This document shows, piece after piece, positions 34,571-51,100 of a stretch of 64,000 nucleotides of DNA. Position numbers and translations under genes: made by a program. Under the pieces are notes generated by a model, which worked only from the letters and a program-made list of their open reading frames with translations, was not told where the DNA came from and did not search any database. Source of the DNA: a virus; the IMG/VR virus record IMGVR_UViG_3300044675_002751, positions 1-64,000 of that record. One strand, given 5' to 3'. Each line of letters starts with the position of its first letter. Positions within the stretch are counted from its first letter, which is position 1.

Positions 34571-37500
34571 TTACTTACGTCCAAACTCCATCTTTCTTAA
34601 GGCAGTTACCGGGTCTACCTGAGATCCGGTAACTCCAAAGATGTCAGCTACGTCATTTAACAGTTTTGGCTGTCCCTCTTTTTGGAACCAGTAAGGACCA
34701 GCATCTCTTTTATAATAACCAGCTGGGTTATCACTTAGAAACTGACTTGTGTGATCCAAGAATTCCAAAGGTTTCTTAATCGTAGTACCATACAGTGTTC
34801 TAGGATCTAATATAGCACCTGATGTACTTTTGAGTACCTTCCAGTTTCTTCCTAATGTTGTTGGACCCCATGAGCCAAATGATTCTACTTCAGAAAGAGT
34901 ACCCAGTGTAGCAACTAACCCATGGTTAAACAACCAACCACCGAAGTTAAAGTCATCTTGATTTAAAGCACCACTTCGTTTTCTCATCTTTTCAAACCTG
35001 TCTTCATCACCTTCTTCGTATCCAAAGACAGATGAAAGTATTATTAAAATAGCCATCTGATGAGTTATGTCTGATGCAAACTTCAGCATGTTTCTCTTTT
35101 GTTCATCTGTTGTCCACTGCATGCTAGATGTACCATATTTCATGATATCTCTTGCCACCTGTATTACGGAGGTATAATAACCTGTACTAACCCCGCCAAG
35201 TGCTGCACTAGGACGTGTGACCGCAACTCTGTTCATCAGCATTGATGTAAAGTAACGTTTTAAGAACATGGCTATAGACATGAGAGCATAACGCTGTGCT
35301 TCAGGCTGGTCCATACGTGCGTATGTACCATTAAGTCTATTACCTAACTCGTGTATCCTGTTCTTAACTTCATTGAACTTTTTACCACCTGGTGCATACT
35401 CTTTGTCTATACCAGACTTAAGTTCTATCTGACCATTTACAACTTCAAATGCATCTATATAGTCTATCTCTTTAGGTTTACCATCAACTATCTGCTCTAC
35501 CTTTACATGATGCATTACACCGCTAAAGAGTTCAACAACAGTTTCTATTTCTAACCACTTTCTTGGAGACATCATAAAACTCAGACTGGCTGCATCTGAT
35601 GCCAAAGAACGACCAAACTGTCCACCCATATCAGTTGCAGAACCATCACCTAATGTTGTATTAAGTACCTCTTGTGTAGGATCAAAAATCTGCAACAGCT
35701 GCGTATCCAAAGAACGGTTGCCTGTCTTGTATAGTTGTGAAGAATATATTGAGAGCATCTTGAAAGCACGAAACTTACCACGCCGATAGCTGTTCCAGTT
35801 TATATATCTACCACTGCTGGCTTCATTCTGCAGCTGAACAATAGCACTTTGTCTGTTTTTGATAGCTGAAGGTAAGATGTTCATTGAAAACATTCCAAAG
35901 CTAGCTAACTTAAGTAAGGCATTTATACTCTTCAAAGCAATAGGTGTATCACTTAACCAGCCTGTTTTAGTCTTACCTTCAAACTCTCTTTCATATAAGT
36001 TACCAATTGCCTTAGCCCTAACACTAGCTCCTTTTTTAGAAAGATAAGATTTGACACCAGTCTTCTGATACTGCCATTTATTAATCTTACCCATTTCCTT
36101 AATAGCATTGTCTGGGCTGCCTACTGCTTTTTTCAAAGCTTGAGCAAAAGGATTAAGCTCAATAAGTTTTTTCTGCTTTAGACCAGAGTGCATATATCTA
36201 AGCATGCTGTCTGCTATATTCATAGACACCTGCCCTGGATCCAGAGCATAGAGACCAGTGATAGGTACCTTGTTGATTTCTTCATCAAACATGTCTGCAT
36301 AAATCAGCTGCTCAGGCTTAAAGTTTAATCCATCCTGAACATCATCTGGAGCTTTAGCAAAATACTGTTTTACACGTGTAGCCCATTCATAAAACTTATT
36401 ACCGGTCTTACTAGCCTGCAATGATTCCAAAGCAGGTTTACGGTAACGTGGTATTTGCATATACAATTTACTTTCACGAGCTAATCCTTCCTGGAACTTA
36501 AGATGATATTCTTTCATCTTTTCCAGTACAGCAAATGCTGCTGGATCTTCACGGCGTAGTTTTTCATAATCAGGATTGTAATACCTGTCATCTACAGCTC
36601 CTTCTTCTAAAGACTTAGGTAGCCAGTTACCACGGTTATCTATAGTCTTACCCACTTCACGCTTTGTACGGAATTCTTTCTTTACACCACGGTAGAAATA
36701 AGAAAGGTTTGGTTTACCCATAATCACTTCACCGCTGGATAATGTGATCTTTTCGTAATGATCAGGGTTGTTAGGACGTGTACGGTTCCATATAAAAAGA
36801 CGCTCATATACAATCTTGGTGTCATTAATACTTTTATCAAACACCTCTTTAGCTATATGATTATCTTTAAACCATTGCTCAAACTCAGGAGACTCTTTGA
36901 ACAGCTCAACATAAGATGCAGGATCTAATAATGTAGAGGCAGAGTCGTTATCTACAGGAGCTCTGCCCATCTTACCTAAGTAGTTATTTATAATATCTAC
37001 ATAGTAATCCGTAGCTTCCTTACTCTGAAGATCACCTAGCTTAGAATAAAGAGCTTGCATTTCAGTTTTAGTAAACTTATCTACGCCAAGGCTATTCTTA
37101 CGTTCAATAAGCTCATCCATTCTTCCACGCTCCTCTTGAGAAAGCTTTTCACGAGCTACAATCTTTTGGAAGTAACCAGAAAGTTCATCCATTTCTTCTC
37201 TGGTAAGACCAGAGAAACCTGCCATAGAGTTACGTTTAGCAAGAGCTGCCTCTTGTAACTGACGTACTTTCTTTTTACTATTCTCAGATATATCTGTACC
37301 AATCACCTGACCGTCCTGGTCACGAAACCCGGTTGCTATATCAAGCATACCTTCCATTTCTTCTGAAGAGTCAACAGCTTTACGTATTTCAGGACTGAGA
37401 CCGGCCATTAATTCGTTAAGATCTGCTAACACTTTATTACGTTCTTCAAAAAACTCTGGAGTGTAAGCTATAACTGTATTGTTCTTAATCCACTTATCAC

Positions 37501-40500
37501 GTTTTTCCTTATACTCATCTGACTTCTCATCTACACCATTGTCTACAAGACTCTGCTCAAAACGCTTTAAGTTAGATTCAAATAAACCCTGTATAGGAAC
37601 CCATTCAAAAAAGTCTCTTGATGCTTTACGATACTCTTTTTCAATCTTAGCCAGCTCCAGATCACGACCTGTTTTTGGATTACCATTAAGATCAGTGAGA
37701 GAAGCAAGCTGAGAATACTCTCTCCAAAGAATCTTTTTCTCTTCTGCAATAAAGTCAAGTGCATCATCATCATAGTTCATAGCATCCAGTTCTTGAATCT
37801 GGTTAAGCAAGATCTGCTTACGCCTGTATGCCTCACGACCCATCTCAGAATCATAGATCTTCTCACGCTCATAGTACTCAGGTACATACTCCTGGTGGAA
37901 ATAATCTCTACGTAACTTACGCATTTCTTTGAGCTTCTGATCAGCCAAAGTCTGGTCACCATCAGCTACTGCCTGGTCATAATCATATTTAAGTTGGGCA
38001 GAGTCAGCAGTGAAGTTATTAAACTTATCTTTAAAAGACCACACCTCTTTAGTAGCAAAATTACCTTTCTCATCTATGTAAGGAACTTTTTCTAGGCTAA
38101 CTATTTTACCCATCAGCTCAGAATAGTTTCTACGACTATAACCAGCTGCGTTCAATAATGGGTCAAGATCACGTACAAAATCATTTATATTACGTTGGGC
38201 TTTGGCATCTACGTCATTATATGCATTCTTAATAAACATAGCAAAACCTCCCACAATAGGATCTGGTGAGTTTGTATATGCTTCTAAAAATGCAGAGTAA
38301 CTATTAGTGTCACCAAGTTTACCTGTCAGCATATCTTTAAGTTTTTCCTTATCAATACGCATCTTTTCATACTTTGCCTTCACTTCATCTATCTTAGCTT
38401 TAGGAGCATTCTTGGCTACAAGAGCATCTATTTCTGCAGTGTACATCCTATCAATCTCTTTAGCCAATGGTTCTAAAGCCTCGTATATAACATCGTTTAC
38501 ATTATCACTATAGATCTTGTTAATGATCCTTTCTGTCTGAGCAACTGTATTTTGAACACCAGATACCACTCTTCCAAATTCTGTATTTGGATTAAGACCT
38601 GCATCAGCTAAACGGTCAACGGTTTCATTAATAAACTTATCCCAGTTACGTACAAGAAGATCATAGTAAAATATGTTCCCTATCACCTCTTTAGAATCAC
38701 CTTGTTTAGCCAACTCACGGACGTGATTTAGAATACTGTCACTCAGTTTCTGCAAACGAAGCATAGAGTGTACAAAACTTTGGGTAGTCTTAGCCCTTAT
38801 TGTAAGATCGTCAAAGATGTCAGCAAGTCTTTCATCTATCTCAGAGTTAGAAAGCGTAGACTTCAGTTCTTGTAACTGACCCCTACCGGTTTCATCTACC
38901 AAGAACTTACGGGCTTCGTTGTAGTTCTTGTTTTCACGTATACGTCTAATGTGATTAGACACTACATCATAAAAACGTTTTACAGAATTAGACACTCCGC
39001 TATATTCTACAGCATTAAGCTCATTCATAAAGTTACTGATATCACGGATATAATCTACCATGTCAGCTTCTGTAACAATATCAGTTGAGATGTTGAATTT
39101 ATTTCCTCTGAGCATCTCAGCCAGTTCTGCCAATGAAGTGTCAGTAGATAGCTTGTCTATATTTATAGAAGTACCAAATACCTTACGGAACATTTGCTTT
39201 AGGGCAAATATCATCTTCTTAATAAATTCACTAAACCCAACACTATCTTTTACACCATTTATCTGATTCTGAGCTTTAGCCGTTAATCCTCTAACAATAA
39301 CTTCCTCCCTGAACTTCTGATCTGTCTCATTAACCTCAGGATATAACGCCTGTACACCAGCAATAATACTTTGTCCTTCTGGAGTAGAAGCAAGTTGGTT
39401 GTAAAGATTATTAAACAGTGTAGGATTCTGAACTGCAACAGCAGCTATAAGTGGGTGAGAAAACTCATGTAGGACATTCTCTGTAGAAAAACCACCGTCT
39501 ACAAAATACACCTGACCATTAAAAAAGAAAGCTTTTTCTCCTCTCCATGGATTAGATGCATTAGCAGTTATCTCGGCAGCTTGTGCTGCAGTAACCATAG
39601 TGTAAGGAACACCTAGGTTCTCAGCTATGGTATCAGCCATAGTGCGGACAATATTTTGTCCTACCTCTATCTTCTGAGCTTGTTCTGTAGGTAATGTTGG
39701 CTCACTAACAACAGGATTAGTTAACTGAGAAAGGATTACATCCCCTGTTCTATCTTCTTGTCTAAATCCTTCAGTATCTCTTTGATCTCCTTGATCTCTT
39801 CTTTGGACATCTTGTCCTGCTGATACATTGCCAACATTCCTTGAAACGTTCCCTTCACCGACTCTAGAGAGCTCGTTTCCTTCAAAGCTTTTTGATAGAT
39901 TTCTTGTAGAGGACTTGTCATATTCATATTTTAGTTTTTTATATGTATCAAAATGTTTCTTGTATACAGAACGCATTAACCCCTCAAAGTAGGGATACTT
40001 GCCTGTGGCATATATGTTACCATATAATTTAGCAAGAGCTGTTGTAAAGCTAGCACCTTCACCCGACACTGTAGTGTGATTAATTTCGTGGATGATGATA
40101 TGGGTCATAAGACCAGTAGCTGCTTCTGCACTTTCTATGTTAAAAGACAATGGGTTAATAAAAATAGCATCAATAACCTTACTAACATGCACACCGCCAT
40201 AACTCTTATCTATAGAAACACCTGCAAAAAACTTACGGTCTGTACCTGAAAGTTTTTCATACTGGTAACCCAATTCTTTACCAGCAAATCTTACCATATC
40301 ATAGACTACAGAGCCAAAGTCACTAAAAAACTCAATAGCTCCTGGTACGGCCAGGTAATCAAAGTTAGTATTGTTATGATACTGAGGCTCATTTTCTTTA
40401 AAACCGCTGGTGTCTACAGTGTTTTTACCAAGTTCAATATCTTTATCAGCTTTAAAGCTAGAACCATATTTTTTCTCACGCTCTACTTCTACCTGATCAC

Positions 40501-42085
40501 CTGTCTCTTCATCCTTTACGCTATTACCAGTAATAACAAGCCTAGTTTTCTTGCGTGGTAATACGTCTTTGTACTTCTCATTTAGTCTCTTACGTTCAGC
40601 AATAGCATCATCCACCTCTTTATAAATCTTCTCTCTTTCTTCAGGAGTAAGTATCTTGTTTGGATCAGTCTTAGGTAGAGCACGGATGTTCTTAAATACA
40701 TCTGCTGCGTCTTTTTCTGCCTCACCGGCTGCATACTTTCGTAGATATGCATACAAGCTGTTAATGTCTTCGGTGACAGTGTTTTTAAAATCTTCTCTTT
40801 GATTATTGAAAGGATACTGCTCAGCAGTAGATCCAACAGACGGTTTAATGTTTATTACTATATTGTAAGGAATAGGCTCATAGTCTCTAAATTCAATACG
40901 TTTACTAAACTGAAAGAGTCCAGAAGAAAGTACCTCATGTCTTGGACTTTCTGTCTTCTCTTCTCCTACATATACTTCTGCTTCACCCCATGCAAACTTT
41001 ACATTAGAGAGCAGTGGTGGTAGTACTTCTTTAGAAATGTTTGCACCAATAGGTAACACTTGATTTTTTGTACTATTTCTCTTAGTTACATTCACACTGA
41101 CATTCAAATTACCAATAAGTGGACGAGTTAAAATGTCAAATCTGTCTACAGGATTAGATGCATACTCACCTGGGAAATCAATAGATCTGGTAGTTCCTTC
41201 AGGAGTAGTATAACTCTCAGGTATCTTAACCTTTACAAACGTACCATTAGGTTCAGATGTAGGTTCAGTACGGATCTGAAAGTCATCATTATATAGTTCA
41301 AGATTAGTAGCTTTTATAGAAGTCTTTATACCGTCTCGAACGGTAGCTACTTCTACATACTCACTACCTAATAAAAATTGCACTTTAGCCAAACCAAAAC
41401 CTCCAGAACGCTCACCTTCAGAAAGTCCTTCTTTATTAGTACCACCTATAGAAAGAAATGCACTCTTTACAATGTCAGGTGTCATACCAATACCATCATC
41501 TTTTATAGATATAGTACGCTCATCATAGTTAACATCAAGAGTGATATTACCCGGAGCGGCTGTATTTACAACCTGGGTACTTGGTTTAAAGTTTTGAATT
41601 TTTTGCTCTAAATCCTGCCTTCTATTAAACAATTCATTGACTTTCCATGGATCACCTGTAAGTACCTCACCTTGATCATCAAATGTAATCTTTTTACTTT
41701 CAGCAGACATGTCTACCATCACTTTATTAAACTCCCTGATAAGAGCTTGCTTTTGCTCCTGTGGATTACCAACTACAGTTTCTTTCTTACTAAGATTCTG
41801 TACGGTCTTAATGGCATCAAATGAGTTTTGTAACAACTCCTTTACTGCAACTTGTGCCAAAGGTTTGTTATACATAGTAGGACCAAGCAGCATAAGTAAC
41901 TGCTTCTTGTTTACACCAATCTGTCCTTGTTCTACAGAACCTTCTCTGTTATACATGACATATTCTTTGGCAGTAGGAATGCTCCCATTACCAATGGTCA
42001 TATAAGCACGGAAAGCTTCTTTCTCTCCGAGCTGTTCAACGAGACTAGTCCACTCTACTGAATTTTTGTTAGGGCAGGTTAACAT
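34571..42085 (-). CDS. Giant virion/ejection protein (2504 aa) with HtpG-like GHKL ATPase and two zincin HExxH motifs
   Basis: KELLQNSFDA, IKDDGIGM, GGFGLA and NGT GHKL boxes; HEINH and HEFSH..EE; directly downstream of the virion RNAP. Confidence 0.8.
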   Translation of the reverse strand: MLTCPNKNSVEWTSLVEQLGEKEAFRAYMTIGNGSIPTAKEYVMYNREGSVEQGQIGVNKKQLLMLLGPTMYNKPLAQVAVKELLQNSFDAIKTVQNLSKKETVVGNPQEQKQALIREFNKVMVDMSAESKKITFDDQGEVLTGDPWKVNELFNRRQDLEQKIQNFKPSTQVVNTAAPGNITLDVNYDERTISIKDDGIGMTPDIVKSAFLSIGGTNKEGLSEGERSGGFGLAKVQFLLGSEYVEVATVRDGIKTSIKATNLELYNDDFQIRTEPTSEPNGTFVKVKIPESYTTPEGTTRSIDFPGEYASNPVDRFDILTRPLIGNLNVSVNVTKRNSTKNQVLPIGANISKEVLPPLLSNVKFAWGEAEVYVGEEKTESPRHEVLSSGLFQFSKRIEFRDYEPIPYNIVINIKPSVGSTAEQYPFNNQREDFKNTVTEDINSLYAYLRKYAAGEAEKDAADVFKNIRALPKTDPNKILTPEEREKIYKEVDDAIAERKRLNEKYKDVLPRKKTRLVITGNSVKDEETGDQVEVEREKKYGSSFKADKDIELGKNTVDTSGFKENEPQYHNNTNFDYLAVPGAIEFFSDFGSVVYDMVRFAGKELGYQYEKLSGTDRKFFAGVSIDKSYGGVHVSKVIDAIFINPLSFNIESAEAATGLMTHIIIHEINHTTVSGEGASFTTALAKLYGNIYATGKYPYFEGLMRSVYKKHFDTYKKLKYEYDKSSTRNLSKSFEGNELSRVGEGNVSRNVGNVSAGQDVQRRDQGDQRDTEGFRQEDRTGDVILSQLTNPVVSEPTLPTEQAQKIEVGQNIVRTMADTIAENLGVPYTMVTAAQAAEITANASNPWRGEKAFFFNGQVYFVDGGFSTENVLHEFSHPLIAAVAVQNPTLFNNLYNQLASTPEGQSIIAGVQALYPEVNETDQKFREEVIVRGLTAKAQNQINGVKDSVGFSEFIKKMIFALKQMFRKVFGTSINIDKLSTDTSLAELAEMLRGNKFNISTDIVTEADMVDYIRDISNFMNELNAVEYSGVSNSVKRFYDVVSNHIRRIRENKNYNEARKFLVDETGRGQLQELKSTLSNSEIDERLADIFDDLTIRAKTTQSFVHSMLRLQKLSDSILNHVRELAKQGDSKEVIGNIFYYDLLVRNWDKFINETVDRLADAGLNPNTEFGRVVSGVQNTVAQTERIINKIYSDNVNDVIYEALEPLAKEIDRMYTAEIDALVAKNAPKAKIDEVKAKYEKMRIDKEKLKDMLTGKLGDTNSYSAFLEAYTNSPDPIVGGFAMFIKNAYNDVDAKAQRNINDFVRDLDPLLNAAGYSRRNYSELMGKIVSLEKVPYIDEKGNFATKEVWSFKDKFNNFTADSAQLKYDYDQAVADGDQTLADQKLKEMRKLRRDYFHQEYVPEYYEREKIYDSEMGREAYRRKQILLNQIQELDAMNYDDDALDFIAEEKKILWREYSQLASLTDLNGNPKTGRDLELAKIEKEYRKASRDFFEWVPIQGLFESNLKRFEQSLVDNGVDEKSDEYKEKRDKWIKNNTVIAYTPEFFEERNKVLADLNELMAGLSPEIRKAVDSSEEMEGMLDIATGFRDQDGQVIGTDISENSKKKVRQLQEAALAKRNSMAGFSGLTREEMDELSGYFQKIVAREKLSQEERGRMDELIERKNSLGVDKFTKTEMQALYSKLGDLQSKEATDYYVDIINNYLGKMGRAPVDNDSASTLLDPASYVELFKESPEFEQWFKDNHIAKEVFDKSINDTKIVYERLFIWNRTRPNNPDHYEKITLSSGEVIMGKPNLSYFYRGVKKEFRTKREVGKTIDNRGNWLPKSLEEGAVDDRYYNPDYEKLRREDPAAFAVLEKMKEYHLKFQEGLARESKLYMQIPRYRKPALESLQASKTGNKFYEWATRVKQYFAKAPDDVQDGLNFKPEQLIYADMFDEEINKVPITGLYALDPGQVSMNIADSMLRYMHSGLKQKKLIELNPFAQALKKAVGSPDNAIKEMGKINKWQYQKTGVKSYLSKKGASVRAKAIGNLYEREFEGKTKTGWLSDTPIALKSINALLKLASFGMFSMNILPSAIKNRQSAIVQLQNEASSGRYINWNSYRRGKFRAFKMLSIYSSQLYKTGNRSLDTQLLQIFDPTQEVLNTTLGDGSATDMGGQFGRSLASDAASLSFMMSPRKWLEIETVVELFSGVMHHVKVEQIVDGKPKEIDYIDAFEVVNGQIELKSGIDKEYAPGGKKFNEVKNRIHELGNRLNGTYARMDQPEAQRYALMSIAMFLKRYFTSMLMNRVAVTRPSAALGGVSTGYYTSVIQVARDIMKYGTSSMQWTTDEQKRNMLKFASDITHQMAILIILSSVFGYEEGDEDRFEKMRKRSGALNQDDFNFGGWLFNHGLVATLGTLSEVESFGSWGPTTLGRNWKVLKSTSGAILDPRTLYGTTIKKPLEFLDHTSQFLSDNPAGYYKRDAGPYWFQKEGQPKLLNDVADIFGVTGSQVDPVTALRKMEFGRK

Positions 42086-42102: not shown

Positions 42103-45100
42103 TTATTCTCCAAAGCATTTCTTCATAAACTCATCCACCATCTCATCGGTGATGTCTTGGTTAGACTGCATTTGCTTACGTAAAGCAGCATCTGTTTCTG
42201 ATCCAGGCATTACATAGTTAAGACGCTTGTACAGCTCTAATACCATATAGTTCTTTGTACGTGGAGCAGCAGCCAACATGTCTTTACCATTTACCACTGT
42301 CAGTCCTTGTTCAGGAAAAGCTACTTCATTACCATTTTCATATTGTGTTTCTATAGCAGTAATAGCATCATTAATCATCTTAGCATTTTCTTCAAAAGTC
42401 TCATCACTAAGAACTTTCTTACCGTCCTGAGTAATTGGAAAGCTAATACTGTTGTTAGCTTTCTGCATTACACCAAATACATCTTTGCTATCTTTAAAGT
42501 TTGGATATACAAGCATTATACTGCTATTTTTTTCTAACAATGCCTTAGCACTGCCTGCTCCGGCTATTGAAGGATATACAAACAGTCCTTGGATATTCTT
42601 AGTTAGTTGTGTTCCATCAGTTGAACTTGTACTAACTGATGACACATCCGGTGTATACAAATAGTTACGAAATCTCTGACGAGTAGAAGAATTAGAAGTA
42701 TTCCATATATCTGTAAACCGTTTAAAGTAGTCATTTAACAACTTAGACTTATCCTTCATTTCTGTAATCTCTTTCAAAGGTTCAGCCATAAGTTTAAGCA
42801 AAGTATCTTTTGGTAAAATGGAAGCTAAGTTATTAGAGCTTTTTGTAGCACCGGCTCTAATGTATTCAGCTACAATCATTCTGTTAAAGAACCTACTAAT
42901 CTCAGCGTTCTGTACAGGGTTTTCCACTTTTACAGTCATTGGATCAGCTAGACGTACCAAGTTTTCATGGAGTACATTTGCAAGATCTTTGTCTGTACGG
43001 GAAGAAGTAAGCTTCAGAGTCTTAAGTTTCTTATTGTTTGACTGAACAACATTACCTTCAGAATCAGCTTTAGCTCCTTCATTTACATAACCCAGCTGAT
43101 CAAATATCATATATTGTTCAGCCAGCTGTGGATACTTAGCTTTAATAGCCAGGAACTGGTCAGCTATACTAACACCAGGAGCCTTAAGCATATGATAAAA
43201 GTTAAAACTAAGTTCTAGAGCTCGAGTTGCTAGCTTTTGTTCATAAACTTCTCTTGACTCATTACCAACAGGTGTAATAGACCTAAGATGCTCACGCTCC
43301 ATTACAAAGTGAATATACTCCTGTAAGTTCTGGTAGTTACCACCCATGTTAAAAGTTTCAGCGTCAACAGTAGCCAAGCCCTGAGATTTGTAACCTTGAC
43401 CAGCAAATGCTTTAGTATTAAAATCAGACTCTATCTGGTTAAAGTCTAAGTACATCACTCCATCTTTTACAAAAGCACCTTGGCGTAACTGGACATTTTT
43501 AACCGGCAAAGCCTGCTTTACAGAAAGTCCTTTATACTCTTTAATGTTGTTAATATCTACCCCTTTCAGATAGTTCTGTAAGAGATACATTGGAAGGTCA
43601 TTATGAAAAGTAGCTACAAACTTTTCAGCAATTGGAAAAGCAGTAGCAAAAGATCTTGACTTTACTTTACTCAATAAAAAAGAGTTTATCTGAGCGTCAC
43701 CCCTCAGTTGCATAAGAGGTTTAAGTATACCCAACTGAAACTTTTGAACCAAGAAGGAACTAATTGGAGAATCTGTAAGAATCTTATCCTTCATATTTTC
43801 TGGTACTGCATCTACATACTCTAGTCCTTCAATCTTATCAAGACGCTCAGTTGCAGCAAACAAACTTTTAGAAGGAGCTGTATCTACGTTAACAGTGAGC
43901 TTGATGTTAGTCAGTTGCTTAGTAACTTCTTCTAGTTCTATAAAATGCAGTAATCCTGCAATAGCTTCAGGACTATTTCTGTCCTTAGACTTGATCACTT
44001 TTTCTAAAGAAGCTACATCATAGGTCCTGTTTTTATTAAAGTTTTCTATAGCTTTATACAGCAGATCGTTGGTAAGGTTTCCATCTTTGGTTAAAGCACC
44101 GATACCCAAACGAGTATAGAAATCTTTCTTGATACCAAATTTTCTCAAGCCTTTTTGTGAGCTAGCCTGATTCTCAGGATTAGCTGCATTGTAAAACGGA
44201 GACTCCACCTTGTACATCTCCTTGATATAGTCTACCACTAAAGGCTGTGATACAAAATAAGCTGCTGTACGGAAATCTACACCTGCTTCAAGCATAAACA
44301 ACAACACCGGACCGGCTATGTTATTACCGTTGATGTTAAAAATCCAGGCGTCTTTTTCAATGTCCACCCATCCGTTCATCAACTGACCAATAAGGTCACT
44401 CACCTTGTCCATAGTTACTGTGTTGATATCAGAAAGAGATATATACTCTTCCCCTTTCTCAGTCATTGTATTATGCTTCATCCTGATATTAATAGGACGA
44501 ACCTGTGGTTTTTTGCTTAAATCTATCTGACCGGTTTCTTTGTTAAAGTTGTAGTGTGTGTATGTCTTTTCAAGACGGGCACCCACTCTTTTAAATATAG
44601 AAGAGTAAGCATTATCCACGGCACCAATACCTAGAGTCTTCTTACCTATGTTGGTACGATCATGCACGAACATGTTGTAACGTGGCTCAAGTACACGAGT
44701 TGGAGAAATAACCTTAGTTTCTTTACCTTTTATTATAGCGGTACGCGGCTTGCCAGTCTTAACAGCAAAAGGATCGTATCCCTGAATGTTTTCACTAGCC
44801 AGTTCATCAGCTACACCTTTAACAAGGTCGGTATTGTTTGGACGTATAAGAGCATCAAAGTTGTCAGGGTGTTCAAGGATCTCACGGATCTTTTCTACCA
44901 CTTTATTTTCTGATGATTTAAGTCCTTTACCTTTTATGTATGTAGGCAGTTCATCAGTTGCTTCCTGTAAAAGAACCTTGTATACTTTCTGCTCGTCTTC
45001 AGTGAGCTCGTAAACAGAAAAGTCATTCTCTGCAGCATCTAGGATAATGTTAATGTTATCCATGCTAAAATCAAGATCCGGATACTTAGTTGACAGCTCT

Positions 45101-48100
45101 TTTATCTTACCCTTACTCTTGTCTCTGTTAATCTTAATACCAATGTTTGGTTGGAAAATTGTAAGTTTATCAATGTCAAAGTCAGCACCAGACTTGGCTA
45201 CGATTTCTGCAGGAGGAACAATGATAGACCCGGCTTCTTCAGGCAGGAACTCATACACCTCCATGAACTCCATGGAGTTTAATCCCTGTACGGGAATACG
45301 TACACCCACCATAGTGATCATCTTACGGTTATCACCTTTGTCTAGCCACTGGTCATCTTTGATCATCTCGTTAAGACGCTCACGGGTGCCGATCTTCTGG
45401 CCGTCATTGTGTTTCAGGTTAAGAAGTTTATAGTAATCACCCTTCAGAGAGATCTTCACCTTCATTGCGGTGGTCTTACCGCGTTTACCATTTTTATCTT
45501 TTTCACCAGGACGGTAAGTAGGTAGGTCGTTAGTACCACGATATTTCTTGATTTCTTCTTCTGAAGGATTGGTATAACGGTTACGAGATTCAAAACCGGC
45601 ACCAGATACCTGGACCAACATCTCACCATTCATCTTTTGTTTGACTAAACGCTTTACAACTATATTGTTTAGCATCTTCTCAATCTTCTCAGCGTTTAGT
45701 GAAAAGCTAAGATCTGTAAAGCTTCCTGATTCCAAGCTCTCTCGTACAAAGTCAATCTCATGTTCTGGCAATTCCAAACGCTCCATTTCACGAGCTACAA
45801 ACTCTAAAAGACTACGCATACTACCAGTAAGTTCCCCAGATGCATTCTCTTTCCAGCCAACTTGCTTTAAGAGTTCCTGCTTCTTATACTCCTGCATCTC
45901 TTCCAGCAAACCTTCGAAGTCTTTTACCAGTTTATCAAAGTCACCGGTAAGGGCAAAACCCTGTTTAAAAGTATCATTGATAATCAGCTTTCTAAGCTGC
46001 GTAGAAAATACAGTCTTATTTTTCCATGTAGACTGGATGTCGACTTGGTCTTTTAAATACTGTATAAAAATGTCATTAGGAGTGTAAGTAGGTTCACCCT
46101 CGTTCCATGGTTTTACAACACGGTTGTTGTAGTCATCATTCTCATATAAAGAGTCAGGCTTTCCATTAGAAGTGATAGTAGCTAGCTTTGATCCAGATTC
46201 AAACAATGCATAATCTACACCCTGCTTAACAAGGTTATCATGAAACACTTCCATGTTAGTTCCTTTTACCAGACTTGGGATAAGTGGTACCAAAGAGAAT
46301 TTATGGAATCCTTGTACATGTAGTTTCTCAGTCTTTACAGGACCAGCGTATTGGAACTTCTTGGTTGGGAAGAACTCAGTGATCTCAGCAGGATCTACTT
46401 GCTCACCAGCAATAATTCTATTGTAAAGATCATTCTGTTTTTCAGACCATGCACCTTCTAGTATAGAAAGTATTCTGTATGCATCAAAAGTAATCCAGCC
46501 CTGACCATCACCTTCTGTCATTTTCTCATATGGTTCAAGAATCTTAATGGCTTCCTCTTTACTATATTTTTCTGTAAGAGCTTCTAAGTATTCTTTATAA
46601 TAAACAGACGGTACATTATTATCTTTAAAGACCGCTGTTCTGATTGTACCATCGAAGCTTCTTTCGTTGGCACCAATAGCACGGGCATAACCACGACCTA
46701 GGTTGTTTATAAACTGATTAACAGCTTCATCACTGGCAAAGATCCTACCAGTAGAACCAATAGACGCATTACGTTTATGAAACTCTTCTTTGTTATGATT
46801 ATATAAAGCTAGATCTCCATAAAAAAGAGACACCATTTCCATATTGTGAATCAGAGCATTAACCGTAAATGCCTTGATAGCTACATCCTGCAGCATTGCT
46901 GTCTGGTCTTCACCTACAGCTACAGAAACGTCTTTACGTATATAAGAAGCTATATCTTTTCCATCTCTTGAGCTGTGTAAAAGCTCAGGAGAAATAAAAG
47001 GCATTTCCTGGAAAAACTTCATATTTTCCTCAAACAGTCCGTTTAGATATACACGGATATCATCTGTAATCTTTTGTTTGATCTCGGGTGCATTAATAAC
47101 TGATAAAGAGTCATCAGCATTAGCCATTTTTTTAAGCTGCTCCTTAGTATTGATTAAAATGTCATCAAACATCATAAACTCTTGACCACGCTCGTTAAAT
47201 CCTGGGATGTTTGGAACCTGTCCTTGTTTGATGATAGCCATACGCTCCATCTCAGCTGCAATCTTTGGTAAAAGAAGGTCTACACTATGACTTAACCAAT
47301 TACCTTTTGCACCACCTTCTTTCTCATAAAAATGACCAGGGCTGATATAAAGATGACGGGTATCCTTTGTATTAAATGGAGAGTTAATCTTAGATACGCT
47401 TATGCCATAAGCAGTTGACTTAGATGCATGCCTTGGTAGTTCCATTATACCTTGCCCAAGCATAGTATGAATGTCAAACAAAAACTTAGATGCTGGATCT
47501 AGGTTAGTAGTTTTAATACCAGACTGAACACTTTGTCCACCAGCTATTGTTTCTATAACACTCTTAATACCATCTAGGTTAACAATGTTCATAGTCACAA
47601 AACCACTGGACAAGTTAGTTCCATCAGCAATACGCTTATTTTTATTAGCCATATCTACTAACTTACCACTTGGTATACTAAACATAGAGTTTAGCAGTAT
47701 TGCGTACTTTGCGTGAGGATTTCTACGAAAGTCTAAATGTTGCAAATGGGCATATTGAACTAGCCCTCTTTTTTTAGTCGGATTATCTTTATCAAGGCTA
47801 TCATCTTCATCAACACTATAATCTAACTCAGGATTATTTATATCGTTAAGCAACTTAGTAATAGAGTTATTTAAAGAAAGGTCGTATACAATGTCACCGT
47901 TTACGTTAGTAACAGCATTGTTAGTGTACTTACCGCTATCCTGTGCTTCTATAGATAGAATCTTATTTACATTGGAAGACTCACCTCCTTTAGGTCCTGC
48001 TTTACGTAGTGCGTTTATAGGGTTGGACGGCATCTGGTTTTTCTCTGCCATCCACTTTACAGCGTTGTACAGGAATCCAATAGACTTATAGTTATCTCTT

Positions 48101-51100
48101 ATCTGTTCCCTAATAGCGTTATTATCTGTAAGGAAGAAACCTATGGATCTCAAAAACTGCAAAGCTTTTTCCTCATTAATAATAATATTGTCTTTACCAA
48201 ATATTTGATAATATGGAAAGTCTTTAATAACCTGTTTAGTGTTCAGCTCATTACCAGCTGCAGACTTGTTAATATATGCACCACGGGGCATTCCCTGAAA
48301 CTGTGATACAAATGTTTTTTCTACCTGGCGGAACTGGGGAGATACTTCTGAAAACTCAAAACTAAATCCACCTTCACTGTCAGATATCAAACGTCCTTCT
48401 TTAATAGGTACTCTGTATACAGAAAAGTCTCTAAAGAAGTTGATCCATATCTTCATGTATGGCCAGTTCTTAGTTTGTGTATGGTCCAACGGATTACGCA
48501 TTCGGTCCACCAAGGCCTTTAGCTCAGGAAAACGTTGAGAAGCTTCTGATAACTTACCATACATCTGGTTAGTTGTATTAGAACCAGCCACTGTATTTAT
48601 TACAATACTCCAGGTTTTGTTAAAGTCAACCAATTTGGGTACACCTAAAGCATTAAGTACAGGATTACCTTTCCTATCTACTTGAGGAAGACTTTTGATA
48701 AGATATACTATCTCGTTAGATGCAAGTTCACGTACAGAGAGTTCGTTACCCTTACGCTCAAAAGCGTTCTGTCCATACTCTTCACGCATCTGCTGTTCGG
48801 TCTTAGCCAGGGGATTTTCTGTGTCTTTAACTTCAGCAGCTTCTTCATTTACACTTTGGTCATACCCATCCATATCAACCACCCTGTCTTCAAATGTGAA
48901 GTAAGAGCTTCTTTTCTTATGGAAAGCAATGACACCAGTAGTTTGTTCACCCTTTGCCACCTTGGAGAAATCTCCCCAGTTTGCAAGAGCAAAGTCTAGA
49001 ATACGTGCTGCAGCAGGTTTATCTACCAAATCTTCTCTCAGCTTTTCTAACTTATTTTTAATATCTATCTCATAAAGTGGACCTATTAACTCAGGCCTGG
49101 TAAATATTGATCCAATGCTAAATTTGTAATCAGAAAGTGTAGATGCTATTAAAGAGTCTATAGTTTCTACTAGTGTAATAGAATCCTGGTAGTTCAGTGA
49201 CTCATCCACCTTTGGATCTACAGCCTCCATTCCTTTATTAAGAACACCAAACTGTACGTTCTTTATAGAAGGTGTATAATCATTGATGTCTCCTATATAT
49301 AGTTTATCATATAGTTCTTGAATACCTTTAACAGCAGTACGGTCAGCAGCTATGTCTTTAAAGCTGTATCCGCTAAACAACTGCTTTAGAAAGTTCCATA
49401 TCTTTCTAAAGAGGCTATTACGTACAGGACGTCCATTAATAACATTCTTACGGTCAGAGAGTACGTACTTTCTAAAGTCTTCTGCCATAAACTCTTCCAG
49501 CTGCATATCAGTGGCTGCACTAAACTTTACAGTGCGTCCGTCAGCAGTTTTAAAACTACCAGTAAGTTTACGGGCTTCATTATAAAGAGCTTTCTTCTGC
49601 TCTTTAGTTAAGAACATCTGTGAGAAAGCATGCCAACCCTCATGATAAAGATCTGTAAAGTTAGATCCGCTCCATAGTGTAATACCAGAAACAGTAAACT
49701 CAGCTAGTGCATTGGAGTTTACTACATTAAACATTACCTGAAAAGGAACAATCTTAGATAGTGGTGAGTTATTATACCACTTTTCAGCAGCATCAATCTG
49801 CTCTTTGGTAGCTGTACTATCAAGTAGTAAAGACTTTTTTAAAGAAAAGTCTGTACGGTCAAGCAATGCTTTAAACGCACTGACTGGGGTATCTGTAGGT
49901 GTAGACTGCTCTAAAGAAGAAGTTTGTTCTTTAGGCTGAACCTTTACCTCACCAAAAATCTTTTTCTGTGTTTCTGCAGTAGGGAATATAGTATTATAAG
50001 CATTAAGGCTTACTATCTTACCCTCCTCATTTTTAGCCAGGTTAGTATAAAAGTTATCAGCCAAAAAGTTATTATAACGCTCTGGCTGCAGTGTCACCTT
50101 ACCATCCAGGTTAACCGGCATATTAAAAGTTGTACCAACTAAGTCTTTATTAATGTTTACAGTTTGAGTGTTCAGGTTTGTTACAAACTTGTCCTTGTTC
50201 TCAGCTGTCACCTCAAAGGTCTCTCCACCTTGTTTGATCATAAGCTTACCATCTATCTCAAAGATGTTTGTATCATTAGAGAAAGTAAACTGCTTTAGTG
50301 TTTTGATCTTGTCAATATTGGAAACGTCAGCGTTAAAGATCATATCAGCCAGGTTCGGTACTAGGCTAGGTATGTTCTGAAACTTAGGTCTGCGTATAAG
50401 AAGCGGAAACTCGTAATCTGGTACATTAAAATAAACACCCCCGTTAATAAGAATACCAGTTTCTTGGTTAGAAATCCAAGGTTTAAAACCTTCAGGTAGC
50501 TCAATAGAACTTATAGAATTTTTCTTAGAAAAGTCTTCCTTTACATAACCGTTCTTACCTGGACTAACAGAAAACAATAACACCTGACTTGGGTTAGATA
50601 TAATAAACTGTCTTGATTTTTCCAAGACATCCATTTCCTGGTTACGTTCTTTAGTAAGTTCTTCCACTGTACCAAAACCTTTTCGTACAAGATCTGCTAC
50701 AGTTTGTACACGACCCACCATACGCTGACCTGCCACTTGTCCTTTAGCCTCGTTGCTCTTAGACGGTGTATATGGTCTACGCATCTTTCCATAAGCAATG
50801 ACACCCTTATCTTTTTCTACAGGAGTTCCCTGTTGGTCAAAGTATAAAATATTACCCTGCTTGTCAGAAAATACAAGATATGTTTCATCACCTTTATCCC
50901 TCTGCTCCATTTTCTGCTGAGCTGTTTTAGCAAACGGGGTTCCTGCAGCATCATCTGTAGAATAGTATTGTTTGTCTGCCTCTTGTAATTGATCAAATGG
51001 AATCATAGAAGCAGGTATCAATCTTAAGTAGATACCAGTTACATTACCCAGAGTTAGTTTATCAGCTGTAGGTCTGTTGTACTGACTCATCAGATTGTTG

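What the first reader, a model, noticed from the sequence alone, without database searches (positions are those of the whole stretch)
39700..41950. HtpG/Hsp90-like GHKL ATPase plus zincin module built into an ejection protein
Seen: after a short N-terminal CPN..EW peptide come complete GHKL boxes (VNKKQLL.LL...MY..KELLQNSFDA, DDGIGM, F..IGGT.K, GGFGLA, NGT), with a roughly 85-aa helical insertion after the N box. A transducer-like region follows, then HEINH, a low-complexity linker and a second HEFSH zincin. Established: crAss-like giant virion proteins are delivered into the cell and often carry zincin domains. Inference: an injected ATP-driven chaperone or remodeler coupled to a protease, which could refold the co-ejected RNAP or disable host defences before phage gene expression. 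I do not recall this architecture being described.
Basis: partly seen in the sequence, partly recalled or inferred. Interest (0 to 1): 0.8.

Follow-up and report, generated by a model that had tools for sequence, protein, structure and literature searches.

The report
Hsp90-like ATPase–protease cassette in ejected protein
A crAss-like phage carries, at the front of one of its giant virion proteins, an optional 750-residue cassette that fuses an Hsp90-type ATPase to a small Wss1-like zinc protease; the same cassette recurs in hundreds of giant proteins of uncultured phages, no paper found here describes it, and it may be an ATP-switched protease delivered into the host.

Summary
ORF 34571-42085 (-) encodes 2504 aa. 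Residues 45-795 form a discrete cassette: an Hsp90-like GHKL ATPase (N and middle domains), a helical linker, a WLM/Wss1-like HExxH zincin and a low-complexity linker.

Support for the ATPase: Pfam HATPase_c_3 above cut-off, hhalign 97.6% to E. coli HtpG, and an AlphaFold model matching Hsp90 at Z 20. The zincin model's best structural match is Wss1 (Z 8.4).

All ATP-binding, catalytic and zinc-ligand residues are invariant or nearly so in 222 homologous cassettes.

The cassette sits exactly between a conserved 43-aa leader and the backbone, which carries the second zincin (HEFSH). The backbone is homologous and syntenic to phi14:2 gp65, a virion protein next to the virion RNA polymerase.

Close relatives (79% identical backbone, 72% identical RNAP) lack the cassette. 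Others carry different cargo in the same slot. So it is an accessory, laterally exchanged effector, not a required RNAP chaperone.

The cassette occurs in about 800 protein clusters, mostly giant polyvalent proteins of uncultured phages, and rarely as a stand-alone cellular gene. No GenBank phage or PLSDB plasmid searched has it. The scan's first readers noted the same cassette in two other genomes.

Function is inferred: probably an ATP-gated protease effector.

The parts
34571..42085 (-). Whole gene: 2504-aa giant virion (ejection) protein, gp65-type, carrying the cassette
   Evidence: Single open frame. Last gene of the co-oriented block 1470 aa - 3199 aa RNAP - 2504 aa, the same order as phi14:2 g067-g066-g065.
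41957..42085 (-). Conserved N-terminal leader, aa 1-43 (MLxCPNK..EW..LV..GE.EA.R.Y)
   Evidence: Present in orthologues with and without cargo. In cassette-less proteins it is joined directly to the backbone.
41186..41914 (-). GHKL (Bergerat) ATP-binding domain, Hsp90-like, aa ~58-300
   Evidence: Pfam PF13589 above cut-off. Profile hits to HtpG/TRAP1. hhalign 97.6% to HtpG residues 4-182. Invariant E83, N87, D90, D196, G200, K218, G228-G231 and T282.
41561..41797 (-). Lineage-specific, mostly helical insertion in the ATPase domain, aa 97-175
   Evidence: Most homologues lack it: their alignments split here. hhalign places it between HtpG residues 62 and 63. Confidently modelled helices.
40721..41185 (-). 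Middle (transducer-like) domain with the catalytic-loop motif YPFNNQRE, aa ~301-455
   Evidence: The structural alignment runs through model residues 14-411 against Hsp90-beta 19-415, and equally through GyrB/TopoVI-B transducers. R430 is invariant in 222 cassettes. The motif resembles HtpG LPLNVSRE.
40394..40720 (-). Helical hairpin and poorly ordered linker between ATPase and zincin, aa ~456-564
   Evidence: Two long helices followed by a low-pLDDT stretch. Variable length among homologues.
39884..40393 (-). WLM/Wss1-like zincin domain of the cassette, aa ~565-734. HEINH at 40076-40090; third ligand E676.
   Evidence: Model pLDDT 92.5. Wss1 ranks first in Foldseek and in the wide VIA search (Z 8.4, 111 aligned, rmsd 3.0), and the other top hits (Z 5 or more) are zincin-fold metallohydrolases. 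H666, E667 and H670 are 100% conserved. Position 676 is H or E in 221 of 222 cassettes.
39701..39883 (-). Low-complexity Gly/Asn/Asp/Arg/Gln-rich linker ending the cassette, aa 735-795
   Evidence: pLDDT below 50. Absent, with the rest of the cassette, from P0249, P0250 and P0251.
39056..39700 (-). Backbone zincin domain, aa ~796-1010 (HEFSH at 39455-39469)
   Evidence: HExxH sits at the equivalent place in nearly all of ~120 backbone orthologues, with or without the cassette. The literature notes a Zincin-like domain in gp65 orthologues. The fold was not predicted here.
34574..39055 (-). Conserved backbone of the gp65-type virion protein, aa ~1011-2504
   Evidence: About 120 orthologues. hhalign of the backbone profile to phi14:2 g065: 97.7%, E 1.5e-12, 574 columns.
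42103..51702 (-). Neighbouring 3199-aa crAss-type virion RNA polymerase (context)
   Evidence: phmmer hit to PDB 6VR4 (phi14:2 gp66), E 2e-27. tblastn hits only Crassvirales phages.

Best explanation
Residues 45-795 of this gp65-type crAss-like virion protein are a self-contained, laterally exchanged cargo cassette. It sits in a hypervariable slot between the conserved leader and the backbone.

The cassette is one functional unit with two enzyme parts:
- a catalytically complete Hsp90-type GHKL ATPase (nucleotide-binding domain plus a middle domain supplying a catalytic-loop arginine);
- a small WLM/Wss1-type zinc metalloprotease, joined by a helical linker.

Proposed mechanism (inferred). The protein is packed in the capsid, where there is no ATP. 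It is then ejected into the cell with the RNA polymerase. In the cytoplasm, ATP binding and hydrolysis by the GHKL clamp would switch on or steer the attached protease. The protease would then cut a target protein, most likely of the host.

The cassette is therefore an accessory, early-acting effector (host takeover or counter-defence). It is not a core part of ejection or of RNAP activation.

Shown here: fold, motifs, cassette boundaries, obligate ATPase-zincin coupling, dispensability, patchy distribution, and virion-protein homology of the backbone.

Inferred: virion packaging of this particular protein, ATPase and protease activity, ATP gating, and the target.

The confidence of 0.5 is for the whole statement. 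The anatomy and evolutionary reading alone I put near 0.9. The ATP-gated effector mechanism I put near 0.4.
For: ATPase identity:
- Pfam PF13589 at 34.7 bits against a cut-off of 25.
- The PDB profile search is topped only by the Hsp90 family, E 1.8e-12.
- hhalign to E. coli HtpG: 97.6%.
- AlphaFold model with pLDDT 84 and pTM 0.73.
- Foldseek and VIA match Hsp90 N+M at Z 20.4, 286 residues, rmsd 3.5.

Catalytic completeness. E83, Q86, N87, D90, G200, M201, K218, G231, K234, R430, H666, E667 and H670 are 100% conserved in 222 cassettes, and D196 in 221 (99.5%). Position 676 is H or E in 221 of 222.

Zincin fold. Model pLDDT 92.5. Wss1 ranks first in two independent searches. Homologues give sub-threshold Pfam WLM hits.

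Obligate coupling. HExxH follows the N box by 450-750 aa in 78 of 80 IMG/VR loci; the other two ORFs run off the contig.

Accessory and mobile:
- P0249, P0250 and P0251 (75-79% identical backbone) join the leader directly to the backbone.
- L001 has the same synteny, a 72% identical RNAP and no cassette.
- The cassette appears at six or more separate places on the backbone tree.
- The cassette is 65-79% identical where backbones are only 25-50% identical.
- Other orthologues carry ART-PolyVal, LysM or unknown cargo in the slot.

Effector company. Elsewhere the cassette is embedded in giant proteins with ART-PolyVal, ParB, RadC, MutS-I, InPase, SLT, LPD38 and LPD39. These are the polyvalent proteins that Iyer et al. 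2017 (PMC5512222) propose are injected with the DNA.

Virion link. The backbone profile matches phi14:2 g065 at 97.7% in the same gene order. g065 and its orthologues are virion proteins. The PhicrAss001 RNAP-associated cargo proteins were found by virion mass spectrometry.
Against: - No activity, target or virion proteomics exists for this protein or any member of the cassette family. No cultured phage in INPHARED carries it.
- ATP gating of the protease is pure inference from the fusion.
- Stand-alone homologues sit among housekeeping genes in two MAG contigs, so the ancestral role may be cellular proteostasis rather than conflict.
- The match to Wss1 is moderate (Z 8.4; Foldseek E 0.05).
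- In this copy the third metal ligand is Glu rather than the majority His.
- GyrB and TopoVI-B tie with Hsp90 structurally, so a DNA-clamp role cannot be excluded from the fold alone.
Confidence: 0.5

Rival explanations
1. One reading: an injected Hsp90-type chaperone or remodeler that refolds the co-ejected RNA polymerase and other cargo, which must pass the tail partly unfolded. The protease would serve as a quality-control or maturation partner.
For: The sequence relation is specifically to Hsp90 chaperones. Cargo proteins of crassviruses are thought to unfold for ejection and refold in the cytoplasm (PMC10172136). The gene lies next to the RNAP. One stand-alone homologue lies next to ftsH.
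Against: A relative with a 72% identical RNAP and a 74% identical backbone has no cassette, and the cassette is scattered on the backbone tree. Most carriers found are giant proteins on uncultured-phage contigs of 13-115 kb, and few of them share this backbone. No match to the Hsp90 C-terminal dimerisation/client domain was seen. The zincin is obligately fused, which a pure foldase would not need.
Confidence: 0.15
2. ATP-gated self-processing device. Once in the cytoplasm, the cassette cuts its own giant protein (or neighbouring cargo) at linkers, releasing the individual domains. This is the role Iyer et al. proposed for zincin (MPTase) domains of polyvalent proteins.
For: Iyer et al. 2017 argue that MPTase domains autoprocess polyvalent proteins after delivery. 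The cassette is bounded by a disordered low-complexity linker. ATP is absent from the capsid, so an ATP switch would delay cleavage until entry. The cassette is nearly always embedded in multi-domain giants.
Against: The backbone already has its own conserved zincin, which is what the literature links to processing. Stand-alone 545-700-aa versions have nothing to process. Many polyvalent and gp65-type proteins manage without the cassette.
Confidence: 0.2
3. DNA-tracking anti-restriction device. The GHKL part acts as an ATP-closed clamp on the entering DNA (as in GyrB, TopoVI-B and MORC). The Wss1/SprT-like protease, which in eukaryotes is a DNA-dependent protease, would remove host proteins bound to phage DNA.
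For: GyrB and TopoVI-B ATPase-transducer modules tie with Hsp90 in the structural search, Z 19-20. The nearest protease folds are Wss1 and Spartan. It co-occurs with DNA-directed domains (ParB, MutS-I, FtsK-gamma, RadC) in other carriers. The anti-restriction protein ArdC pairs a DNA-binding domain with a zincin.
Against: Sequence profiles point to Hsp90, not to MutL, MORC or GyrB. No DNA-binding domain or motif was identified in the cassette. There are no PADLOC or other system-level links.
Confidence: 0.12
4. A decayed or purely structural passenger domain with no enzymatic role.
For: It is dispensable in close relatives.
Against: Every catalytic and ligand residue of both enzymes is conserved in 222 cassettes and intact in this copy. 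The cassette is more conserved than the backbone.
Confidence: 0.03

Closest known systems
Hsp90 family (bacterial HtpG, mitochondrial TRAP1), N-terminal and middle domains
   Same: Bergerat ATP-binding fold with Hsp90-type N-terminal helix and N box (..QLL.LL...MY......KEL.QN..DA), G1 and G2 boxes. A middle domain with a P-x-N-x-[SQ]-R-E catalytic-loop motif. Best sequence-profile and structural matches.
   Different: No match to the Hsp90 C-terminal dimerisation domain was seen: after the middle domain come a helical hairpin and a zincin. There is an 80-aa insertion in this lineage. Scores lie far below the HtpG family cut-offs. The profile relation covers the N domain only.
Polyvalent proteins of phages and conjugative elements (Iyer, Burroughs, Anand, de Souza, Aravind 2017, PMC5512222)
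   Same: Giant multi-domain proteins of mobile elements that combine unrelated enzymatic domains with a zincin, have architectures that vary between relatives, and are proposed to be delivered with the DNA. Cassette carriers hold that paper's signature domains: ART-PolyVal, LPD38, LPD39, DdrB-ParB, InPase.
   Different: The main text of that paper does not mention an Hsp90, GHKL or HATPase domain. Its supplements could not be read. The cassette's zincin is not matched by any Pfam model above cut-off.
phi14:2 gp65 / PhicrAss001 RNAP-associated cargo proteins (Crassvirales virion proteins)
   Same: The backbone (aa ~796-2504) is homologous to gp65 (97.7%). It has the same position after the virion RNAP and the same zincin-bearing N-terminal part noted in the literature.
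   Different: gp65 has 1421 aa and no cassette. Backbone identity is low (18% in the hhalign alignment). Virion presence is shown for phi14:2 and PhicrAss001, not for this phage.
Wss1 / SprT (Spartan) WLM-type zincins, and the ArdC-type MPTase
   Same: Small zincin fold. Metal motif HExxHx5[H/E], as in Wss1's HExxHx5H (spacing from my own knowledge). Top structural hits. Sub-threshold Pfam WLM hits in homologues.
   Different: Below Pfam threshold. This copy has Glu as third ligand. No SHP/VIM/SIM or DNA-binding appendages were identified. It is fused to an ATPase, which these families are not.
T4 rIIA (phage protein with an N-terminal GHKL ATPase domain)
   Same: A phage-encoded GHKL ATPase with a variable C-terminal part, linked to counter-defence (PMC7824862). 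Weak tblastn similarity limited to the ATP-binding domain.
   Different: No PHROG match for this protein. rIIA has no zincin. As far as I know it is not a virion protein.

Membership tests
GHKL (Bergerat-fold) ATPase superfamily | N box (ExxxNxxD), G1 (DxGxG), G2 (GxxGxG) and G3 (GT) motifs in order | tested here: met
   E83/N87/D90, D196-G198-G200, G228-G229-x-G231 and G281-T282 are present and conserved in 222 homologues. Pfam PF13589 is above cut-off.
GHKL (Bergerat-fold) ATPase superfamily | Bergerat alpha/beta sandwich followed by a transducer-type second domain | tested here: met
   AlphaFold model pLDDT 84. Z 19-20 to Hsp90, GyrB43 and TopoVI-B over ~285 residues spanning both domains.
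Hsp90 / HtpG family | Hsp90-type N domain detectable by family profiles | tested here: met
   The top 60 PDB profile hits are all Hsp90-family proteins. hhalign to HtpG 97.6%. The best NCBIfam match is 'HSP90 family protein'.
Hsp90 / HtpG family | Middle-domain catalytic loop with the conserved arginine (..NxSRE..) | tested here: inconclusive
   YPFNNQRE with R430 invariant resembles HtpG LPLNVSRE and lies inside the structurally aligned range. I could not read the residue-level structural equivalence.
Hsp90 / HtpG family | C-terminal dimerisation domain and full-length family score | tested here: not met
   NCBIfam HtpG/HSP90 scores are 23-55 bits against cut-offs of 371-455. Most structural alignments end near model residue 411, and none reaches the Hsp90 C-terminal domain (chain ranges stop by ~residue 480). 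A zincin follows instead.
Zincin metallopeptidases, WLM/SprT-like branch | HExxH on the active-site helix plus a third ligand five residues later, on a small beta-sheet plus helices fold | tested here: met
   HEINHx5E in this copy. The pattern is H/E/H invariant plus H or E in 221 of 222 cassettes. The top structural hits (Z 5 or more) are all zincin-fold metallohydrolases.
Zincin metallopeptidases, WLM/SprT-like branch | Membership of Pfam WLM (PF08325) by score | tested here: inconclusive
   No hit for this copy. Homologues P0192 and P0217 score 23 and 18 bits against a cut-off of 26. Wss1 is the top structural match at Z 8.4.
Polyvalent proteins (Iyer et al. 2017) | Giant phage or plasmid protein combining a zincin with several unrelated domains, with architecture varying among close relatives | tested here: met
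   Two zincins plus a GHKL ATPase in 2504 aa. Orthologues swap cargo in the same slot. Cassette carriers hold ART-PolyVal, LPD38 and LPD39.
Polyvalent proteins (Iyer et al. 2017) | Delivered into the recipient cell with the DNA | not testable with these tools
   Only indirect evidence: homology and synteny with the virion protein phi14:2 gp65.
Crassvirales gp65-type RNAP-associated virion protein | Homology to phi14:2 gp65 and position directly after the virion RNAP gene | tested here: met
   hhalign 97.7%, E 1.5e-12, 574 columns. The RNAP neighbour matches 6VR4 at E 2e-27. The gene order is identical.
Known anti-phage defence proteins with GHKL domains (e.g. Tiamat TmtA, MORC-like) | Match to a PADLOC model | tested here: inconclusive
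   No match for the cassette. The only traces in homologues are a TmtA hit at E 0.009 for P0217 and a REase_II hit at E 0.003 for the L010 stand-alone.

The most novel reading that the evidence does not exclude
The cassette defines a new kind of energy-dependent protease. An Hsp90-type GHKL clamp, rather than an AAA+ ring, captures a client protein and presents it to a covalently attached Wss1-type zincin. Uncultured phages have spread this machine through their injected giant proteins, to destroy specific host proteins (for example defence or DNA-bound proteins) in the first moments of infection.
Probability: 0.25. Interest if true: 0.85.

Novelty: new variant of a known kind. Interest (0 to 1): 0.62.

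Why it matters
Injected phage proteins decide the first minutes of infection, and in crassviruses almost nothing is known about them beyond the RNA polymerase.

This work gives a cleanly delimited, swappable cargo slot in a crass-type virion protein. It also defines one widespread cargo: an Hsp90-like ATPase always fused to a Wss1-like zincin. All catalytic residues are conserved across about 800 protein clusters, yet the cassette is absent from every GenBank phage and PLSDB plasmid searched.

If the ATPase controls the protease, this would be a GHKL-driven protease, a combination I do not know from any characterised system. It would also be a new class of phage early effector.

The natural pairs of near-identical phages with and without the cassette point to a direct test: compare what the cassette does to host range or to defence systems.

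Tried and rejected
- PHROGs gave no family for the 2504-, 3199- or 1470-aa proteins. For 24 backbone orthologues it gave only unnamed single-member hits.
- tblastn of the cassette and of the backbone against 50,697 phage records found nothing. A typical stand-alone member found only partial ATP-domain hits to rIIA, HtpG and 'ATP-binding protein' genes in phages and plasmids.
- PADLOC gave no meaningful match.
- The backbone profile against the PDB gave only noise. The single backbone sequence against the PDB gave nothing.
- Pfam on three orthologues with other large cargo (P0259, P0270, P0305) found no family.
- Complex prediction on two copies of the ATPase plus middle domain returned 'no answer' (score 0.33, mark 0.42). 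It is not used as evidence either way.
- A search for direct repeats flanking the cassette found only short chance matches.
- Phage_Mu_F was not found in five cassette-bearing IMG/VR records. The T7-type portal family did not ring even in the control genomes, so that search was uninformative. The morphotype and virion context of the non-crass carriers remain open.
Gene neighbourhoods of the stand-alone forms could be seen only in two MAG loci.
- Supplements of Iyer et al. 2017 are not held. I cannot exclude that the cassette is listed there under another name.
- I considered MutL, MORC, GyrB and sacsin affinities. Sequence profiles favour Hsp90 throughout, although the structural scores do not separate Hsp90 from GyrB/TopoVI-B.
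Full report
**1. What is there**

The finding lies in one open frame, 34571..42085 on the minus strand, of 2504 aa.
- KELLQNSFDA from 82
- DDGIGM at 196
- IGGTNK at 213
- SGGFGLA at 227
- NGT at 280
- HEINH at 666
- HEFSH at 873

Pfam finds HATPase_c_3 at 34.7 bits, above its cut-off of 25.

A profile built from 34 homologues hits only Hsp90-family N domains at the top of the PDB list: HtpG 2IOR at E 1.8e-12 and TRAP1 at 1e-11. It aligns to E. coli HtpG residues 4-182 with 97.6% probability. NCBIfam's best match is 'HSP90 family protein', but at 23-55 bits against cut-offs of 371-455. The protein is Hsp90-like, not an HtpG.

**2. Fold**

AlphaFold2 on aa 45-760 with that alignment gave pLDDT 84 and pTM 0.73.
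- Foldseek returns full-length Hsp90s and GyrB 43K fragments at E 1e-11 to 1e-9.
- The VIA re-alignment gives Z 20.4, 286 aligned residues and rmsd 3.5 Å against human Hsp90-beta. Model residues 14-411 align to chain residues 19-415.
- GyrB and TopoVI-B ATPase-transducer fragments are tied at Z 19-20.

So there is a Bergerat domain plus a transducer-type second domain.

The middle domain carries YPFNNQRE. Its arginine (R430) is invariant in 222 homologous cassettes. The motif resembles HtpG's LPLNVSRE catalytic loop. I could not read the residue-level superposition, so that equivalence is probable, not shown.

The roughly 80-aa insertion after the N box (aa 97-175) is confidently modelled as mostly helical. 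It falls between HtpG residues 62 and 63. Most homologues lack it.

**3. The first HExxH is a real zincin and part of the same unit**

Folded alone, aa 556-740 gave pLDDT 92.5. Wss1 is the first hit in both searches:
- Foldseek: prob 0.87-0.89, E 0.05.
- The wide VIA search: S. cerevisiae Wss1 at Z 8.4, 111 of 128 residues, rmsd 3.0; S. pombe Wss1 at Z 7.2.

YbeY, Spartan and minigluzincins follow. All hits at Z 5 or more are zincin-fold metallohydrolases.

H666, E667 and H670 are 100% conserved. The residue five positions after the second His is His in 171 cassettes, Glu in 50 and Gly in 1 of 222. The motif is therefore HExxHx5[H/E], the Wss1 spacing (from my own knowledge). This copy has Glu. 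Two homologues give sub-threshold Pfam WLM hits.

In 80 IMG/VR loci, an HExxH follows the N box by 450-750 aa in 78. The other two ORFs run off the contig. ATPase and zincin are thus obligately coupled.

**4. Cassette boundaries and the host protein**

A search with the C-terminal 1200 aa found about 120 orthologous giant proteins.
- The closest that lack any GHKL domain (P0249, P0250, P0251; 1757-1776 aa; 75-79% identical) join the leader (...GDG-xIPTA) directly to the backbone (...IPTxQxQK..G(Q/N)...). This precisely omits aa ~41-795.
- The second zincin, HEFSH, has an HExxH at the equivalent position in nearly all orthologues. It belongs to the backbone.
- IMG/VR locus L001 shows the same gene order, a 72% identical RNAP and a 1761-aa protein without the cassette. 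L002 has the cassette.

**5. Virion context**

The adjacent 3199-aa protein matches the crystal structure of the phi14:2 virion RNA polymerase (6VR4, E 2e-27). In GenBank phages it hits only Crassvirales.

phi14:2 has the order g067 - g066 (RNAP) - g065, all detected by MS/MS in virions. The backbone profile aligns to g065 with 97.7% probability, E 1.5e-12, over 574 columns.

Drobysheva et al. state that gp65 orthologues are virion proteins carrying a Zincin-like domain (10.1101/2020.03.07.982082). Bayfield et al. found the three RNAP-associated proteins of PhicrAss001 in virions (PMC10172136).

So the carrier is a gp65-type ejected protein by homology and synteny. Packaging of this particular protein is inferred.

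**6. The cassette is accessory and mobile**

- On a tree of the backbone C-termini (124 proteins), the cassette appears in at least six separate places.
- The segment ahead of the backbone ranges from 39 to 1505 aa.
- Other occupants of the slot include ART-PolyVal, LysM, a duplicated copy of the backbone zincin bracketing about 1000 aa, and unrecognised sequence.
- The cassette is more conserved than its carrier: 79% against 43-50% for P0005, 67% against 31-33% for P0012, and 65% against 25-27% for P0009. This fits lateral exchange, strong constraint, or both.
- GC3 is somewhat lower in the cassette (0.257) than in the backbone (0.31) or the RNAP (0.32). This is weak evidence.

**7. Distribution**

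An exhaustive HMMER search found 795 representative clusters at E up to 0.001. Of these, 270 are at E up to 1e-30.
- The cassette sits at any position in proteins of up to 7154 aa. It also occurs in stand-alone proteins of about 545-830 aa.
- Carriers often hold the 'polyvalent protein' domains of Iyer et al. 2017: ART-PolyVal, LPD38, LPD39, DdrB-ParB, InPase, RadC and MutS-I.
- IMG/VR holds at least 169 viral contigs with it. In 68 complete ORFs the median length is 2846 aa.
- Among 185,579 species genomes, only seven MAG contigs matched.
- In two of those contigs a stand-alone copy sits among housekeeping genes: tilS - ftsH - X - aspS - pnp in one, and next to tgt in the other. The motifs are intact.
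- No GenBank phage or PLSDB plasmid has the full cassette.
- The ESM Atlas neighbours are unnamed, mostly viral clusters.
- First readers of this scan noted the same architecture in two other genomes.

**8. Is it described?**

The main text of Iyer et al. 2017 mentions no Hsp90, GHKL or HATPase domain. Its supplements are not held. Full-text searches pairing crAss-like or polyvalent proteins with Hsp90 or GHKL found nothing relevant. The known phage GHKL protein rIIA shares only the ATP-binding domain.

Within the limits of this library, the cassette appears undescribed. Its carrier class and the backbone zincin are known.

**9. Mechanism**

Shown:
- a catalytically complete Hsp90-type ATPase always fused to a complete WLM-type zincin;
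- placement in an optional cargo slot of a virion-protein homologue.

Inferred: after ejection into the ATP-containing cytoplasm, the ATPase cycle switches or steers the protease towards a target.

The cassette is dispensable in phages with nearly the same RNAP. It spreads across hundreds of other phage giant proteins, few of which share this backbone. It keeps company with host-modifying domains.

Self-processing of the giant protein and a DNA-clamp/DNA-dependent protease are live rivals. Nothing here identifies the substrate.

**10. Verdict**

This is a new variant (a new cargo module) of a known kind (polyvalent, injected phage proteins). Interest is moderate to high, because the family is large, enzymatically intact, apparently unstudied and directly testable.

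Noticed in passing
window 41957-42085 (-), aa 1-43: The short leader (M-L-x-C-P-N-K...E-W..L-V...G-E.E-A.R.Y) is conserved in gp65-type orthologues whatever cargo follows, including its single Cys. It may be a packaging, ejection or docking signal.
   Followed up: partly
window 49630-49644 (-), RNAP aa 687-691: The 3199-aa virion RNAP carries its own HExxH (LYHEGWHAF) in its N-terminal third, conserved in the L001 relative. It may be a further zincin, as Iyer et al. describe for N4-type virion RNAPs.
   Followed up: no
P0269, P0274, P0281, P0283, P0285, P0286, P0347 (orthologues): In these gp65-type proteins the backbone zincin region (query aa ~846-1000) occurs twice, bracketing about 1000 aa of unrecognised cargo. 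This suggests a second insertion point or a duplication-mediated way of gaining cargo.
   Followed up: partly
P0010 versus P0259: These two proteins have almost identical backbone C-termini but different N-terminal cargo: the GHKL-zincin cassette (pre-region 897 aa) against 1217 aa with no Pfam match. This looks like a very recent cargo swap.
   Followed up: partly
L011:7719-9839 (+) and L010:7647-9488 (+): Stand-alone 706- and 613-aa homologues of the cassette lie among housekeeping genes in MAG contigs of 95 and 67 kb. One (Chlamydiae MAG) sits between ftsH and aspS/pnp; the other sits next to tgt. A cellular branch of the family may exist.
   Followed up: partly
window 39701-41953 versus 34574-39700: Third-position GC is lower in the cassette (0.257) than in the backbone (0.31) or the RNAP (0.32). 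This is compatible with a different history.
   Followed up: partly
whole record (G000, 88,089 bases): The window's record is a linear IMG/VR viral contig that CheckV estimates as about 70% complete. Related contigs reach 110-133 kb, which is large for crass-like phages. Replication genes (family A DNA polymerase, DnaB, primase, thymidylate synthase) fill the plus strand at 1-34 kb.
   Followed up: partly
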